This document shows, piece after piece, positions 1-6,926 of a DNA stretch of 7,931 bases. This stretch comes from a virus. Taxonomy: Duplodnaviria; Heunggongvirae; Uroviricota; Caudoviricetes. Location of the stretch: positions 1 to 7,931 of IMG/VR virus record IMGVR_UViG_2684622582_000001; one strand, written 5' to 3'. The notes beneath the pieces are model-generated. The model saw only the letters and a list, made by a program, of their open reading frames with translations. It was not told the origin of the DNA and did not search any database. The translations under genes were made by a program, and so were the position numbers. Every line of letters begins with the position of its first letter. Positions within the stretch are counted from its first letter, which is position 1.

Positions 1-40
1 TATTTTTTGATGTTTGACATCTATTCATATCCTCATAGAT

Positions 41-66
41 AAAAAATCGCCCTCACACTGGAGGGC
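41..66 (-). terminator. Candidate rho-independent terminator at the distal end of the leftward (pL) operon
   Basis: Inverted repeat GCCCTC(49-54)/GAGGGC(61-66) with a 6-nt loop; on the minus strand the stem is followed by GATTTTTT (plus-strand A-run 41-48). It lies about 135 nt downstream of the stop of the 201..824 gene. Confidence 0.5.
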
Positions 67-200
67 AAAGAAGATTTCCAATAATCAGAACAAGTCGGCT
101 CCTGTTTAGTTACGAGCGACATTGCTCCGTGTATTCACTCGTTGGAATGAATACACAGTGCAGTGTTTATTCTGTTGTTTATGCCAAAAATAAAGGACGA

Positions 201-824
201 TTATGCGACCTCGGAAGGAAGTCCAATCATCTTATTCAAATCTTCTACCCGTAAAGCAGGAAGTGCTGTACTTGCTTTATCTGCTTCTTTTGGTAGCAAC
301 TCTTTGCTTTCAGGCCAAACTTCAATAAGTCGCTTAACTGTTGTGACTGAGTTCAAAGCAGCCCATACATTTGATTCGATATCCTTTTTCTTGGCTTCAA
401 GTTTTTGTTGCAATGCGCAGATTTCATCAAACCTTTTTGTTATTTCGTGTTCTGCGCTAAACATGCATTTATCTTTGGTCGGAGTAGGGAGCAATATATC
501 TTCGCCGTTGCCGTCTTTCCCATATGAATACCAGCCAACCCTTCTGCCAGATACAGTCAGATAAATTGAAGTTGAACGGGCATCGCATGAGTAAAATGAA
601 CATCCCAGCTTTTCAAGTTCTTCGCTTATAGCCATTAACTTGGATGATAACTGATCCACTTCCTCAGTTTTCTTTTTACCGCCAAACGCAACAACTCTGG
701 CGTCAAGTGCAAGCTGGTTATTTAACTTTGTTACTTCTTTAAGTTCAGTGAAAACCCCAGACTTAATTAAAGCGTTACGAGCGATTATCTCTTTCATTCT
801 CGTTGTTAAGCGGATTGATGACAT
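201..824 (-). CDS. Hypothetical protein (207 aa), accessory gene distal to N in the leftward operon; function unknown
   Basis: Long minus-strand ORF (track 201..884). Start is chosen at the ATG at 822-824 (MSSIRLTTRMKE...), 11 nt after the N stop at 836-838, with a purine-rich GAGAGAA upstream; the track's upstream Met would overlap N by about 48 nt. No transmembrane segment or motif I can recognise. The coding region is visibly more AT-rich than the flanking N and repressor genes. Confidence 0.6.
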   Translation of the reverse strand: MSSIRLTTRMKEIIARNALIKSGVFTELKEVTKLNNQLALDARVVAFGGKKKTEEVDQLSSKLMAISEELEKLGCSFYSCDARSTSIYLTVSGRRVGWYSYGKDGNGEDILLPTPTKDKCMFSAEHEITKRFDEICALQQKLEAKKKDIESNVWAALNSVTTVKRLIEVWPESKELLPKEADKASTALPALRVEDLNKMIGLPSEVA

Positions 825-835
825 ATTAATTTCTC

Positions 836-1135
836 TCAAATAAGTGGTTTGCTGCCTAATTTCATTTTCTGGCGACCAACACAAGTCACACCCATTTCAC
901 TGCGTGGCTTGCGGTAGTAAATACGGTTCTGTTTACGCTCGACTTCATCTGCCTTCTTGCTGAGAAGGCTGCCAAGTGATGCTGCTTTGTCTGCTCTGAC
1001 GCAACCAGAGAGCTTTAGCGCAATCTTCCTCGCCAGTCGCTGTTCTTTCATTGCCTGTTCACGTTGAGCCTGTCTGCGTGCTCTGCGGCGATTTCTGGCG
1101 TTATCGTCAGCCAGATATGTAATGACTACTGTCAT
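836..1135 (-). CDS. N: N-family transcription antitermination protein
   Basis: 99-aa minus-strand ORF. The C-terminus (RKQNRIYYRKPRSEMGVTCVGRQKMKLGSKPLI) closely parallels the lambda N C-terminus as recalled (RKNQRTWYSKPGERGITCSGRQKIKGKSIPLI). An N-terminal arginine-rich motif (NARNRRRARRQAQREQ) is present. GGAGG RBS (revcomp of 1141-1145) sits about 5 nt upstream of the ATG. Position is immediately downstream of pL/nutL. Confidence 0.85.
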   Translation of the reverse strand: MTVVITYLADDNARNRRRARRQAQREQAMKEQRLARKIALKLSGCVRADKAASLGSLLSKKADEVERKQNRIYYRKPRSEMGVTCVGRQKMKLGSKPLI

Positions 1136-1248: not shown

Positions 1249-1290
1249 TCCCGCATTTCGGCGGGACAATCCCATCAATGTTAAAGAGCC
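1249..1290 (-). promoter_or_regulatory. nutL: boxA-like element followed by boxB hairpin (read on the minus strand)
   Basis: Minus-strand boxA-like GGCTCTTTAA (revcomp of 1281-1290; consensus CGCTCTTTA). 14 nt further along the transcript is the hairpin TCCCGC-CGAAAT-GCGGGA (revcomp of 1249-1266), identical to the boxB of nutR at 2403-2420. It sits between the pL candidate and the N start. Confidence 0.7.
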
Positions 1291-1336
1291 TGCCAATCTG
1301 TTCCGTTTGGCTACCAGCGTCCTGCTGATGACTTAA

Positions 1337-1363
1337 ATTTAAGATTTCTTTAATTAGTGGTCA
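1337..1363 (-). promoter_or_regulatory. OL operator (P22 c2 type) with candidate pL promoter
   Basis: ATTTAAGATTTCTTTAAT at 1337-1354 fits the P22 operator pattern ANTNAAG-N4-CTTNANT and is near-identical to OR1 here. On the minus strand TTGACC (revcomp of 1358-1363) is a -35 candidate with TTAAAT (revcomp of 1336-1341) about 16 nt downstream as -10. Further degenerate operator-like TTAAG/CTTAA repeats occur at 1381-1420. Confidence 0.55.
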
Positions 1364-1427
1364 AGGGTATTTTTGAAGAAAACTTAAATTTTTATTGCGA
1401 GGCTTAAGTTTTGCTTTGATTTTTAAA

Positions 1428-1455
1428 GGAAAGAAAAAAGGGGCGAATGCCCCTT
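1428..1455 (-). terminator. Rho-independent terminator at the end of the repressor gene
   Basis: Stem GGGGC(1440-1444)/GCCCC(1449-1453) with loop GAAT, extendable by AA/TT pairs. On the minus strand it is followed by TTTTTTCTTTCC (plus A-run 1428-1437). The hairpin overlaps the repressor stop codon at 1454-1456. Confidence 0.6.
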
Positions 1456-2104
1456 ATGGAAGGTTTGCTATTTTTGCATCGACAACTACACCGATGATTT
1501 TGCAGTTCCCGTTGATCTCAATCATCGGATATTGTGGGTTAAGTGGTTTTAGAAACCTCCTGCCAGCATCAATAACTAACTTCTTGAAAGTTGCCTCGTT
1601 TTCTCCTTCGAGCTTTGCCACTACCAGCTTCCCATTACGAGGTTCTACTTCAGGATCGACGAGTATTATCATCCCTTCAGGGATGCTAAGACCGGCTGGA
1701 GCCGTCATCGAATCACCTTTTACGTCCAGCCAAAACGAATCTTCTGAACAATCTACGGTTGTATCGTACCAGTTATCTATTGCACGCTTATGATATGGCT
1801 CTACAGCTTCCATCCAACATCCTGCGCTTACCCAACTAATTAGAGGATACGAACCTCTTGGATCATGCCTGCTGTGATAGGCAATGTTTGAAAGACTATC
1901 TTCTCCTTTCAACAAGTAATCAGGGGAGCACTGCAAAGCCTTGGCTAAGGCCAATAGGTTTTCGCCATTGGGCTCAGTTTCAGAACGCTCCCATTGGGAA
2001 ATAGCAACATTAGACACGCCAACCATCTTGCCAAGGGCAGCCTGCCTAATCTTGAGTTCTTTTCTGCGAGCGCGAATACGCTCACCCATCAGTTGTGTAT
2101 TCAT
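1454..2104 (-). CDS. c2: Phage repressor, P22 c2 type (HTH N-terminal domain plus LexA-like S24 self-cleaving C-terminal domain)
   Basis: 216-aa ORF that is near-identical along its length to the P22 c2 repressor as I recall it (MNTQLMGERIRARRK...KIIGVVVDAKIANLP). HTH region (QAALGKMVGVSNVAISQWER) is present. C-terminal domain carries the S24 Ser/Lys dyad context (GDSM ... KLVVAKLEG). Divergent from cro across an operator region. Confidence 0.95.
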   Translation of the reverse strand: MNTQLMGERIRARRKELKIRQAALGKMVGVSNVAISQWERSETEPNGENLLALAKALQCSPDYLLKGEDSLSNIAYHSRHDPRGSYPLISWVSAGCWMEAVEPYHKRAIDNWYDTTVDCSEDSFWLDVKGDSMTAPAGLSIPEGMIILVDPEVEPRNGKLVVAKLEGENEATFKKLVIDAGRRFLKPLNPQYPMIEINGNCKIIGVVVDAKIANLP

Positions 2105-2184: not shown

Positions 2185-2370
2185 ATGTACAAGAAAGATG
2201 TTATCGACCACTTCGGAACCCAGCGTGCGGTAGCTAAAGCGTTAGGCATTAGCGATGCAGCAGTCTCTCAGTGGAAGGAAGTCATCCCAGAGAAAGACGC
2301 CTATCGACTGGAAGTCGTTACAGCTGGCGCCCTGAAGTATCAAGAAAGTGCTTATCGCAAAGCGGCATAA
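2185..2370 (+). CDS. cro: Cro repressor, P22 type
   Basis: 61-aa ORF that is near-identical to P22 Cro as recalled (MYKKDVIDHFGTQRAVAKALGISDAAVSQWKEVIPEKDAYRLE...). Contains an HTH. GGAGCGAG RBS precedes the ATG at 2185. First gene rightward of OR. Confidence 0.95.
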   Translation: MYKKDVIDHFGTQRAVAKALGISDAAVSQWKEVIPEKDAYRLEVVTAGALKYQESAYRKAA

Positions 2371-5430: not shown

Positions 5431-5739
5431 ATGGACGAATCAAGAAAGCAGTTTGAGGAATACGTTGCCAAAAAATTGAAATTACCATTCGAGATGATAA
5501 CCGAGGCAAGAAATGGTGATAGGTACTTCGCATTTTCAAGCATGGATATTCGTCACTCCTTAAATGAGTGGTGGACTTTATGGCAGGCATCGCGAGCAGT
5601 TATCGAGATTGAGCTGCAAAAGCCAAAGAAAGGCCCACTTCCCGGTGATTATCACATTGGCTATGACTCAGGTGCAGAATCGCAATACGAAAGCGATGTA
5701 GAGGCTATCCGCGCCGCTGGAATCAAAGTGAAGGAGTGA
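5431..5739 (+). CDS. Hypothetical soluble protein (102 aa)
   Basis: ATG at 5431 with GAGGGTAAG upstream. Acidic and soluble-looking product (MDESRKQFEEYVAKKLKLPFEMITEARNGDRYF...). Stop (5737-5739) overlaps the RBS and start of the next gene. No homolog recognised. Confidence 0.7.
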   Translation: MDESRKQFEEYVAKKLKLPFEMITEARNGDRYFAFSSMDIRHSLNEWWTLWQASRAVIEIELQKPKKGPLPGDYHIGYDSGAESQYESDVEAIRAAGIKVKE

Positions 5740-5741
5740 GC

Positions 5742-5927
5742 ATGAGTCGACGAAGTAGATTTTTGGGGTTTGTAATATTCCTGTCCTGCACTGGTTACAT
5801 CGTAATCTGGTCAATTTCGAACATTGACCGTGGCGGGGAATATCTCATTGTAATGTTCTTTCCTTTGTTTCTTGGGTGGTACGCCGCAAGGTTGCTGGAA
5901 GAATGGGGTTACAGGCATAAAAAATAA
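5742..5927 (+). CDS. Small predicted membrane protein (61 aa, two hydrophobic helices)
   Basis: ATG at 5742 with AAGGAG RBS at 5731-5736; the track's GTG at 5736 sits inside the RBS and is less likely. Hydrophobic segments FLGFVIFLSCTGYIVIWSI and YLIVMFFPLFLGWYAA, with a basic C-terminus. Confidence 0.6.
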   Translation: MSRRSRFLGFVIFLSCTGYIVIWSISNIDRGGEYLIVMFFPLFLGWYAARLLEEWGYRHKK

Positions 5928-6349: not shown

Positions 6350-6522
6350 GACGACAGCGACGAAGTTTCACCGACATCATCTGCGAAAACTGCAAATACC
6401 TTCCAACCAAACGCTCCAGAAATAAACGCAAGCCAATCCCAAAAGAATCTGACGTAAAAACCTTCAATTACACGGCTCACCTGTGGGATATCCGGTGGCT
6501 AAGACATCGTGCGAGGAAATGA
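6346..6522 (+). CDS. ninE: NinE-family protein
   Basis: ATG at 6346 overlaps the ninB stop (ATGA) with a strong AGGAGG RBS (6334-6339). 58-aa basic product [40 protein letters not shown]..., which I recognise as NinE-like. The track's start at 6301 lies inside ninB and is rejected. Confidence 0.8.
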
Positions 6523-6926
6523 CAATGCTTTTAATTCAACCTGGATTTGGCCTTAGCATCAAAAAATGGCACATGTTTGGCGAGAAAAAGTCTCAACGAA
6601 AAATGGTGCTTATCAAGTTGCCATTTATCAGTATTTGTTGGCTAAACAGGGAGTCAGCAAATTATTTGTCTACATGCGCCAGAGCAGCATTTAACGACCC
6701 TGAGTGGTTTGTAGAAAACCATCACGCTGTTCGTCAGGCAAAGAGAAAGGCCAAAACGACATACATGAAGGCGTATCGAAAAGCATGGAAAGAACACCGC
6801 GATCGATACCAACAAGACATGGAAAAGCTTGAATCAGAAAACATGGAATTAAGACGAAAGCTCGGTGAAGCAAAACGAGACATTGATGCTTACAAGCGAC
6901 TTTTTAATGGTGAAAGCCATGCCTAG
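6519..6926 (+). CDS. Hypothetical protein at the P22 ninX position (between ninE and ninF), C-terminal coiled-coil-like region
   Basis: ATG at 6519 overlaps the ninE stop (ATGA) with GAGGAA upstream. 135-aa product; the C-terminal half is strongly charged and heptad-like ([41 protein letters not shown]). Start is uncertain, and an alternative-frame 42-aa ORF (6566..6694) sits inside it. Confidence 0.5.

What the first reader, a model, noticed from the sequence alone, without database searches (positions are those of the whole stretch)
201..824. AT-rich 207-aa gene of unknown function immediately distal to N in the pL operon
The gene sits 11 nt after the N stop, so it is co-transcribed from pL under N antitermination and expressed immediately on infection or induction. 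Its base composition is visibly more AT-rich than the neighbouring N and repressor genes, which suggests horizontal acquisition. In lambda the equivalent slot carries Ral and SieB (restriction alleviation and superinfection exclusion), so this slot hosts host-interaction accessory genes. The protein has no TM segment and no motif I can place, so it is a candidate undescribed early-expressed defence, anti-defence or exclusion factor. Function is inference only.
Basis: partly seen in the sequence, partly recalled or inferred. Interest (0 to 1): 0.75.

Follow-up and report, generated by a model that had tools for sequence, protein, structure and literature searches.

The report
Nmad5-family early gene after N
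It is not undescribed, though: it belongs to the catalogued phage family Nmad5, whose function is still unknown and which is probably a non-enzymatic early accessory protein.

Summary
Window 201-824 (minus strand) is an intact 207-aa ORF starting 11 nt after the N stop. It has the lowest GC of any gene-sized stretch in the window (40.4% against 47.0%; GC3 35%).

It is not an orphan. It matches Pfam PF18757 (Nmad5) end to end (E 4.7e-70) and PHROG 1965. RefSeq already annotates it as an "Nmad5 family putative nucleotide modification protein" in 211 of 5,426 complete E. coli genomes, and it is present in phages HK542 and Kapi1.

It behaves as a single-gene mosaic cassette. In 80 lambdoid contigs it keeps at least 92% amino-acid identity while having 13 kinds of upstream and 17 kinds of downstream neighbour. 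Only 64 of the 292 genomes with this N allele carry it next to N. An insertion sequence (IS) truncates it in Stx2a phages.

The family is large: 2,427 clusters at 50% identity. In the 249 members listed by two searches it is a stand-alone protein of about 200 aa with no fused domains. It has no catalytic-looking invariant residues and no solved structural relative.

No nucleotide-modification genes accompany it here, so the family label is not supported in this context. My best guess (about 0.4) is an early, binding-type anti-host or counter-defence accessory protein. The main rival is a DNA replication/recombination accessory.

The parts
201..824 (-). Nmad5-family gene, 207 aa (ATG 824, stop TAA 203-201)
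   Evidence: ORF. Pfam PF18757, 236 bits, residues 4-203 against profile positions 1-206 of 206. PHROG 1965. AF2 model with pLDDT 86. dN/dS about 0.35.
825..835 (-). 11-nt N-to-Nmad5 spacer GAGAAATTAAT. Together with the N stop codon it reads TGAGAGAAATTAAT, which holds a weak GAGAG Shine-Dalgarno-like element.
   Evidence: Read directly from the sequence.
836..1135 (-). N-like antiterminator, 99 aa. Its last ~30-90 nt form the upstream edge of the shared Nmad5 homology block.
   Evidence: PHROG 271 'anti-termination protein N-like', E 6.8e-35. Weak match to Pfam N_peptide. Homology breakpoints fall at window ~844-931.
1249..1289 (-). nutL-like element: boxA-like GCTCTTTAACA (1279-1289) and a boxB-like 6-bp hairpin with loop CGAAAU (1249-1266)
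   Evidence: Sequence and fold. The assignment rests on resemblance to lambdoid nut sites, from my own knowledge.
1336..1364 (-). pL-like sigma-70 promoter, TTGACC-17-TAAATT
   Evidence: Consensus scan. It is the only promoter-like site in 1-1500.
1438..1455 (-). Terminator-like hairpin just after the repressor gene. It would stop pRM-type transcripts before pL.
   Evidence: Consensus scan.
123..162 (-). Strong RNA/DNA hairpin, about 40 nt after the Nmad5 stop, with no U-tract. Its 5' base is a mosaic junction.
   Evidence: dG -22.8 kcal/mol, z -7.6, 0 of 200 shuffles fold as well. Alternative cassettes are joined exactly at ...CACTGCACTG|.
47..68 (-). Intrinsic-terminator-like hairpin plus a T6 run (tL1-like). 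It is the usual downstream edge of the shared block.
1..20 (-). Start of the next pL gene (MSNIKK...), which runs off the window. The same gene is annotated as DUF2528 family in related prophages.

Best explanation
Shown. The gene encodes a stand-alone, soluble, mostly helical 23-kDa protein of the Nmad5 family (Pfam PF18757). It is carried on a single-gene mosaic cassette at the first position after N in the leftward early operon of a lambdoid E. coli phage or prophage.

Inferred (expression). It is transcribed from pL with N. It is therefore made within minutes of infection or induction and is silent in the lysogen.

Inferred (mechanism). It has no catalytic-type conserved residues, no fused domains and no constant partner gene. 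It therefore most likely works by binding, not catalysis. The likely binding surface is the family's best-conserved part, the C-terminal module T162-x-K-R-L-x3-W-P-E-x2-E-L-x-P ... L-P-A-L-x-V-x-D-L-N-x2-I-G-L-P. I propose that it binds a conserved host component, or phage DNA itself. This would either blunt a host nuclease or an NTPase-type defence, or otherwise favour early phage DNA metabolism.

In short, it would be a dispensable anti-host or counter-defence accessory. In this context it is not a DNA-modifying enzyme.
For: Family and fold:
- Full-length Nmad5 match.
- Its only structural relatives are other phage Nmad5 proteins.

Early expression:
- pL-like promoter, nutL-like site, an 11-nt gap to N, and no promoter-like site of its own.
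- In Klebsiella prophages (ORFs checked) it is the first gene leftward of the repressor, with no N at all. A Providencia prophage shows the same picture apart from one opposite-strand 85-aa ORF in the gap.

Accessory behaviour:
- AT-rich.
- 13 upstream and 17 downstream neighbour types around a cassette of at least 92% amino-acid identity.
- Next to N in 64 of the 292 genomes with this N allele.
- Truncated by an IS element in Stx2a phages.
- An opposite-strand insert among head genes in Dhillonvirus and Vibrio phage P23.
- Still under purifying selection, dN/dS about 0.35.

Non-enzymatic and stand-alone:
- Across 146 diverse members the positions conserved at 90% or more are I14, A18, R43, G48, G93, T162, L166, W170, P171, E172, L176, P178, L196, N197 and G201.
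- All 103 database hits carry the Nmad5 domain alone.
- Typical length is about 200 aa.

Link to host immunity:
- In Dhillonvirus the homologue is deletable and could not be cloned, apparently because it is toxic.
- A K-to-E change in it gives escape from the Tmn defence NTPase, whereas deleting it does not. That is a gain of function (PMC11846954).
- That lysine aligns with R165 of this protein, inside the conserved C-terminal module.
Against: - No experiment exists on this protein or on any close relative.
- The Tmn result comes from a homologue that is about 33% identical over the C-terminal half, and it is mechanistically ambiguous.
- There is no resemblance to any known anti-defence protein, PADLOC model or solved structure.
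- The family keeps one motif across phages of E. coli, Pseudomonas, Vibrio, Bordetella and Aeromonas. Known counter-defence proteins are usually narrower than that.
- In many phages it sits among polymerase, SSB, exonuclease and primase genes.
- It is almost absent from plasmids: 6 of 72,556 records, none mobilizable. Many anti-restriction genes, by contrast, are common on plasmids.
Confidence: 0.4

Rival explanations
1. It is a phage DNA replication/recombination accessory. It would be a structural adaptor or a DNA-binding or DNA-end-binding factor that assists phage-encoded exonuclease, annealase, SSB or polymerase functions. It would not act on host immunity.
For: - N4-like phages have the order Pol A, ThyX, Nmad5, PD-(D/E)XK exonuclease, primase, Sak4-like annealase, SSB.
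- A Providencia prophage has Nmad5, two small ORFs, DUF2800 nuclease, Enc34-type SSB, then (after one opposite-strand ORF) Pol A.
- Among neighbours of 37 subfamilies, Pol A, DUF2800, PDDEXK, Enc34 SSB, RecT, AAA_24, VapE and helicases recur.
- The pL operon of lambdoid phages is their recombination operon.
- The family is restricted to phages and widely conserved.
Against: - It is deletable in Dhillonvirus (PMC11846954) and IS-disrupted in Stx2a phages.
- It is present in only a minority of lambdoids with the same N allele.
- It co-occurs with Erf, RecT or Exo/Bet/Gam alike, so it is tied to no one recombination system.
- Lambdoid phages use the host replisome (established knowledge).
- It shows no fold similarity to known annealases, Gam, Ku or SSB proteins.
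Confidence: 0.25
2. It is what the family name says: an accessory of DNA base modification, for example a specificity or scaffolding subunit for thymidine hypermodification or methylation.
For: - In Yuavirus and Vojvodinavirus it lies between aGPT-Pplase1 and the dU hydroxymethylase, within the hypermodification cassette (PMC9476957).
- An Aeromonas prophage has Dam and C5 methylase genes two genes downstream.
- Three methylase families appear once each among downstream neighbours.
Against: - No hydroxymethylase, kinase, aGPT-Pplase or methylase is annotated in the window or in the left arms of the three related E. coli phages or prophages examined. The cassette itself is this one gene only.
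- There is no catalytic-type conservation.
- The modification cassettes are themselves embedded in replication modules, so the association may reflect co-location only.
Confidence: 0.08
3. It is a prophage-encoded defence or superinfection-exclusion factor that protects the lysogen, like SieB or Rex in the neighbouring slots.
For: The slot and the AT-rich, moron-like behaviour fit. SieB genes are neighbours in 2 of the 37 subfamilies.
Against: - No promoter-like site of its own was found, and the gene starts 11 nt after N.
- A terminator-like hairpin lies between the repressor gene and pL.
- No PADLOC hit and no transmembrane segment.
- The family is common in strictly virulent phages: Schitoviridae, Yuavirus and Dhillonvirus.
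Confidence: 0.05

Closest known systems
The same gene in sequenced lambdoid phages and E. coli prophages: HK542_033, HK244 orf01 (named in the HK542 note), Kapi1_018 and RefSeq WP_000095085.1
   Same: 92-99.8% identity, the same 207-aa length, and the same position at the head of the leftward early operon.
   Different: The upstream gene differs (lambda-type N, this N allele, Ral, Nun-like and others) and so does the downstream gene. None has been studied experimentally.
Dhillonvirus Nmad5 (phages SM_A8, SMS22, BF9 gp17), in which Tmn-escape mutations map
   Same: Same Pfam family. Both the N-terminal and the C-terminal modules align. The escape residue K216 corresponds to R165 in the conserved K-R/K-L-x3-WPE motif (PMC11846954).
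   Different: It is 254 aa or longer, with a large central insert. It is about 33% identical over the C-terminal 100 residues only. It is an opposite-strand gene among head genes of a virulent phage.
Nmad5 of Yuavirus / M6-like phages, within the thymidine hypermodification cassette
   Same: Same family; the C-terminal half aligns at 32-44% identity.
   Different: There it is embedded among aGPT-Pplase, kinase, radical-SAM, PLP and hydroxymethylase genes. None of these is present here.
Lambda Ral (and, from my own knowledge, P22 gene 17): small accessory genes in the slot after N
   Same: Same slot and the same early pL expression. Both are dispensable and variably present (established lambda biology).
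   Different: There is no sequence or fold relationship. Ral is a separate 66-aa gene that sits between N and Nmad5 in 9 of 80 contigs, so the two are not alternatives.

Membership tests
Pfam PF18757 Nmad5 / PHROG 1965 | Full-length profile match above the curated cut-off | tested here: met
   236.3 bits against a cut-off of 27; residues 4-203 against profile positions 1-206 of 206. PHROG 1965, E 1.4e-80.
Pfam PF18757 Nmad5 / PHROG 1965 | Conserved C-terminal motif (T..L...WPE..EL.P ... LP.. ..LN..GLP) plus the N-terminal R43/G48 positions | tested here: met
   All the positions conserved at 90% or more across 146 diverse members are present in the window protein.
Pfam PF18757 Nmad5 / PHROG 1965 | Stand-alone single-domain protein of about 200 aa | tested here: met
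   The best 150 of 2,427 representatives are mostly 190-220 aa. All 103 indexed hits carry the Nmad5 domain alone.
Pfam PF18757 Nmad5 / PHROG 1965 | Shared predicted fold with other members | tested here: met
   Foldseek against BFVD: the 11 hits with E <= 1e-3 are uncharacterised phage proteins of 181-253 aa. The four among them that carry a specific name are called Nmad5 or nucleotide-modification-associated. Top TM-score is 0.76.
Nucleotide-modification systems (the functional claim in the family name) | Co-location with base-modifying enzymes (hydroxymethylase, 5-hmdU kinase, aGPT-Pplase, methylase) | tested here: not met
   None is found in the window or in the three related E. coli phage or prophage left arms examined. 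The shared cassette holds this gene alone. The feature is met only in Yuavirus and Vojvodinavirus, and loosely in one Aeromonas prophage.
Nucleotide-modification systems (the functional claim in the family name) | Enzymatic activity on DNA or nucleotides | not testable with these tools
   There is only indirect evidence: no invariant Asp/His/Cys/Ser/Lys constellation and no enzyme fold.
Known anti-phage defence proteins (PADLOC-DB) | Match to a defence-system protein model | tested here: not met
   0 families at E <= 1.
SieB-type superinfection exclusion | Membrane protein expressed in the lysogen from its own promoter | tested here: not met
   No transmembrane segment. No promoter-like site other than pL in a consensus scan. 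No SieB Pfam hit.
Known anti-restriction / nuclease-inhibitor proteins with solved structures (Ocr, ArdA, lambda Gam, Mu Gam/Ku) | Sequence or fold similarity | tested here: not met
N-dependent delayed-early gene of the pL operon | Downstream of pL and nutL, on the same strand as N, with no intervening terminator | tested here: met
   pL-like site at 1336-1364, boxA/boxB-like element at 1249-1289, an 11-nt gap to N, and the first terminator-like site at 47-68 after the gene. The transcription itself has not been measured.

The most novel reading that the evidence does not exclude
Nmad5 proteins would be a very large, overlooked class of non-enzymatic early phage proteins. The 'nucleotide modification' label would be a misnomer that came from co-location. 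Their conserved basic-WPE C-terminal module would engage host immune or DNA-metabolism NTPases or nucleases, such as the KAP-type Tmn. This lambdoid copy would be a counter-defence factor whose specificity can be retuned by single substitutions, for example at R165.
Probability: 0.2. Interest if true: 0.6.

Novelty: already known. Interest (0 to 1): 0.3.

Why it matters
The gene itself is not a discovery. It is already named in RefSeq and Pfam.

What could matter is the family. It has more than 2,400 clusters at 50% identity in phages of many Proteobacteria. In temperate phages of several genera it takes the first transcribed position of the leftward operon. It has no known function, fold relative or partner.

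Its one experimental link is a gain-of-function escape from the Tmn defence, at a residue that is conserved here. The lambdoid copy sits in the best-understood phage genetic system, so it would be a convenient place to find out what Nmad5 does. It would also show whether the 'nucleotide modification' annotation now spreading through genome records is wrong for most members.

Tried and rejected
- PADLOC and NCBIfam scans gave no hit.
- PDB sequence searches with the single protein and with a 146-sequence profile returned only coiled-coil or designed-protein noise.
- Foldseek against PDB gave nothing below E 0.39.
- The afdb50 library was unavailable.
- A Pfam scan of 146 diverse members found no second family. 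The PHROG scan found only phrog_1965, plus a 'DNA polymerase' PHROG hit by 6 members, which is probably a mis-annotation from adjacency.
- A search for domain fusions in the 5.8-billion-protein index found none.
- Rfam on 1-1500 gave only sub-threshold chance hits.
- The DefensePredictor 'NMAD' defence domain turned out to be Nmad2, so it is irrelevant.
- The paper that defined the Nmad domains (Iyer et al. 2013, PMC3763556) is not held, so I could not read the original rationale for the name.
- Literature searches for PF18757, IPR040835, phrog_1965 and WP_000095085 found nothing.
- Plasmid search: 6 records, all non-mobilizable and of phage size. The gene is therefore not a leading-region anti-defence gene of conjugative plasmids.
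- Coliphage N4 itself did not appear among the listed hits; among N4-like phages only the Humphriesvirinae did.
- I considered and dropped a beta-clamp-binding or SAP/HeH reading of the C-terminal tail. The resemblance was by eye only and was not tested.

Full report
**What the window is.** The window is the immunity and early region of a mosaic lambdoid E. coli phage or prophage.
- A P22 C2-type repressor lies at 1454-2104 (-), with HTH_3 and Peptidase_S24 domains.
- A Cro-like gene lies at 2185-2370 (+).
- An N-like antiterminator lies at 836-1135 (-). It matches PHROG 271 at E 6.8e-35 and weakly matches Pfam N_peptide.
- O-like and DnaB-like replication genes and a nin region follow.
- No phage record covers 80% of the window. 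The best matches (Gally, Kapi1, HZ41, Stx phages) cover 54-75% in five to seven pieces at about 95-96% identity.

**Checking the observation.**
- The ORF finder lists 201..884 (-) with a TTG start.
- Homologues from other genera start at this position (alignment A1). RefSeq annotates the same start.
- The N stop (TGA) is separated from the ATG by exactly 11 nt, GAGAAATTAAT.
- The gene is 40.4% GC (GC3 35.1%). N is 49.0%, the repressor 45.5% and the window 47.0%. The lowest-GC 624-nt window (39.3%) starts at 219, inside the gene.
- There is no transmembrane segment. The maximum Kyte-Doolittle 19-residue mean is 0.61.
- The reading frame is real. In 65 gap-free related copies, 64 are intact, and pairwise dN/dS is about 0.33-0.39.

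**What it is.**
- The protein matches Pfam PF18757, 'Nucleotide modification associated domain 5' (Nmad5), end to end. The score is E 4.7e-70 and 236 bits against a cut-off of 27, with residues 4-203 on profile positions 1-206 of 206.
- It also matches PHROG 1965, of unknown function.
- The same gene at 92-98% amino-acid identity is present in phages Kapi1, HK542 and Stx1a-converting phages. The HK542 annotation note also names a homologue in HK244.
- It is present in 211 of 5,426 complete E. coli genomes, where PGAP calls it 'Nmad5 family putative nucleotide modification protein'. One copy is 99.8% identical at the DNA level.
- A profile search of 1.84 billion representative proteins finds 2,427 clusters (E <= 1e-3). 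The 150 listed are nearly all stand-alone proteins of about 190-220 aa.
- The 103 hits in the 5.8-billion-protein index all carry the Nmad5 domain alone, so there are no fusions.

**Structure.**
- AlphaFold2 with a 31-sequence alignment gives a confident model (mean pLDDT 86.4, pTM 0.71).
- It has three long helices (8-47, 50-72, 127-158), a small beta insert (about 86-122) and a small C-terminal helical module (163-199). The last about 25 residues are of low confidence.
- Foldseek against PDB gives nothing below E 0.39.
- Foldseek against viral models returns only uncharacterised phage proteins of similar size. Those that carry a specific name are called Nmad5.
- PDB sequence and profile searches, PADLOC and NCBIfam are all negative.

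**Conservation across the family.**
- Across 146 diverse members (25-57% identity to the window protein), the positions conserved at 90% or more are I14, A18, R43, G48, G93, T162, L166, W170, P171, E172, L176, P178, L196, N197 and G201.
- This is a hydrophobic, Gly and Pro pattern with one Arg, one Glu and one Asn. It does not look like an active site.
- The best-conserved segment is the C-terminal T-x-K-(K/R)-L-x3-W-P-E-x2-E-L-x-P ... L-P-A-x-x-V-x-D-L-N-x2-I-G-L-P.
- The protein is mildly basic (pI 8.25).

**It is a single-gene mosaic cassette.** I examined 80 lambdoid viral contigs that carry the gene at 92% amino-acid identity or more.
- DNA homology to the window begins within the last ~30-90 nt of N (window ~844-931).
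- It ends either about 45 nt past the stop (window ~156-171) or at the terminator (~41).
- The upstream neighbour falls into 13 clusters. These include lambda-type N (20 contigs), this window's N (9), other N alleles that share only the C-terminal tail, Ral (9) and a Nun-like protein (4).
- The downstream neighbour falls into 17 clusters.
- In complete E. coli genomes this N allele occurs in 292 genomes, but N and Nmad5 are contiguous in only 64. Nmad5 occurs in 209-211 genomes.
- In 48 Stx2a-converting phage records the match covers only residues ~34-207. In the one record examined this is because an IS3-family element has cut off the 5' end. The gene is therefore dispensable there.
- It is almost absent from plasmids: 6 of 72,556 records, all non-mobilizable and phage-sized.

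**Expression (inferred).**
- The only sigma-70-like site in 1-1500 is TTGACC-17-TAAATT at 1336-1364 (-), where pL should be.
- A terminator-like hairpin (1438-1455) follows the repressor gene.
- The first terminator-like site downstream of pL is at 47-68, after the Nmad5 gene (fold dG -12.9).
- Between pL and N there is a boxA-like GCTCTTTAACA and a 6-bp boxB-like hairpin.
- With an 11-nt gap to N and no promoter-like site of its own, the gene should be made with N immediately on infection or induction, and not in the lysogen. None of this has been measured.

**Context elsewhere in the family.**
- Klebsiella prophages: the homologue (58% identity) is the first gene leftward of the repressor, with no N-like ORF in the gap. 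It is followed by kil and, at the far end of the operon, the integrase gene.
- Providencia: it is again first after the repressor, apart from one opposite-strand 85-aa ORF in the gap. It is followed by two small ORFs, a DUF2800 nuclease, an Enc34-type SSB and, after one opposite-strand ORF, Pol A.
- Aeromonas: it is fourth after the repressor, with Dam and C5 methylase genes two genes downstream.
- N4-like Humphriesvirinae: the order is Pol A, ThyX, Nmad5, PD-(D/E)XK exonuclease, primase, Sak4-like protein, SSB.
- Yuavirus and Vojvodinavirus: it lies between aGPT-Pplase1 and the dU hydroxymethylase of the thymidine-hypermodification cassette, next to Pol I (PMC9476957).
- Dhillonvirus and Vibrio phage P23: it is an opposite-strand insert among head genes.

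I also tallied Pfam families among the three genes on each side, in one representative of each of 37 subfamilies.
- Upstream: cI-type repressors (7-8), N peptide (3), DUF2800 (3), Enc34 SSB (3), PDDEXK (3), VapE (2), DUF3799 (2), SieB (2) and Pol A (2).
- Downstream: Pol A (4), DUF2800 (2), AAA_24 (2), RecT (2), helicase (2) and three methylase families once each.
- The common thread is early or DNA-metabolism regions, not base modification.

**The only experimental handle.**
- In Dhillonvirus, escape from the Tmn defence (a KAP-type P-loop NTPase) maps to nmad5 (K216E in SM_A8, K296E in SMS22).
- Reverting the change restores sensitivity. Deleting nmad5 does not give escape. The gene could not be cloned, apparently because it is toxic (PMC11846954).
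- I aligned the SM_A8 protein (254 aa) to the family profile. It matches both the N-terminal (residues 1-58) and C-terminal (165-253) modules, around a large insert.
- K216 falls on R165 of the window protein, the second basic residue of T-T-V-K-R-L-I-E-V-W-P-E.
- The escape is therefore a charge reversal inside the family's most conserved module, and it is a gain of function. The authors' reading that Tmn senses 'DNA modifications made by Nmad5' is not demonstrated.

**How it most likely works.**
- Shown: family membership, stand-alone architecture, cassette behaviour, position, composition and purifying selection.
- Inferred: early pL/N-dependent expression.
- Inferred: action by binding, because there is no catalytic signature, no fusion and no constant partner gene.
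- Inferred: the target is a conserved host component or DNA, because the cassette moves alone and the motif is kept across phages of distant hosts.
- My preferred reading (about 0.4) is a dispensable early anti-host or counter-defence accessory that acts through the C-terminal module.
- The main rival (about 0.25) is an accessory of phage replication or recombination. The neighbourhoods in virulent phages and in Providencia-type prophages favour it. Dispensability, patchy presence and indifference to the type of recombination system weigh against it.
- The family-name hypothesis of nucleotide modification gets about 0.08 in this context. No modification enzyme was seen in the window or in the three related E. 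coli phage or prophage left arms examined.
- A lysogen-expressed defence or exclusion role gets about 0.05.

**Verdict.** The gene is an already catalogued Nmad5-family gene, so its novelty is 'already known'. The remaining interest lies in the family's unknown function and a possibly misleading name.

Noticed in passing
window 123-162 (-): A very stable hairpin lies about 40 nt after the Nmad5 stop: a stem of about 17 pairs (14 of them contiguous), dG -22.8 kcal/mol, z -7.6, with no U-tract. In related contigs alternative downstream cassettes are joined exactly at its 5' base (...CACTGCACTG|). It may be a recombination boundary sequence or an RNA processing or stability element.
   Followed up: partly
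L308 (Stx2a phage Stx2_EH1965) 238-2025; 48 Stx2a phage records: In the Stx2a-converting phage examined, the Nmad5 gene is cut off at its 5' end by an IS3-family insertion (orfA and orfB on the opposite strand), which leaves residues ~34-207. The other 47 records show the same partial match.
   Followed up: partly
window 836-931 (-): The last ~30 codons of N (...RIYYRKPRSEMGVTCVGRQKMKLGSKPLI) are shared by otherwise unrelated N alleles. They mark the upstream breakpoint of the Nmad5 cassette, so the 3' end of N acts as a mosaic boundary sequence.
   Followed up: partly
L307 (phage SM_A8) 1033-1797; window residue R165 (codon at window 330-332): The Tmn-escape substitution K216E of Dhillonvirus Nmad5 aligns with R165 of the window protein, in the conserved K-R-L-x3-WPE motif. 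The Dhillonvirus protein is a full family member with a central insert of about 100 residues, not a C-terminal fragment.
   Followed up: yes
L309-L311 (Klebsiella), L313 (Providencia): In prophages of other genera the Nmad5 homologue is the first gene leftward of the repressor, and no N-like ORF lies in the gap. Being the first gene of the early-left operon is therefore conserved beyond N-using lambdoids.
   Followed up: partly
window 1-20 (-) and L007, L003: The next pL gene (MSNIKKYIIDYDW...) is a DUF2528-family protein of unknown function. It is another variable accessory gene, present after Nmad5 in only 5 of the 80 contigs.
   Followed up: no
phage records MG197996.1 (APC_JM3.2), Pseudomonas phage PMBT3, phrog_15487: Some Nmad5 homologues are deposited under misleading names ('Smchd1', 'DNA polymerase A'). 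These are probably annotation artefacts.
   Followed up: no
window 5736-5927 (+) and 6483-6926 (+): Two other ORFs in the nin region are also below the window's mean GC (43.2% and 42.6%). I did not examine them.
   Followed up: no
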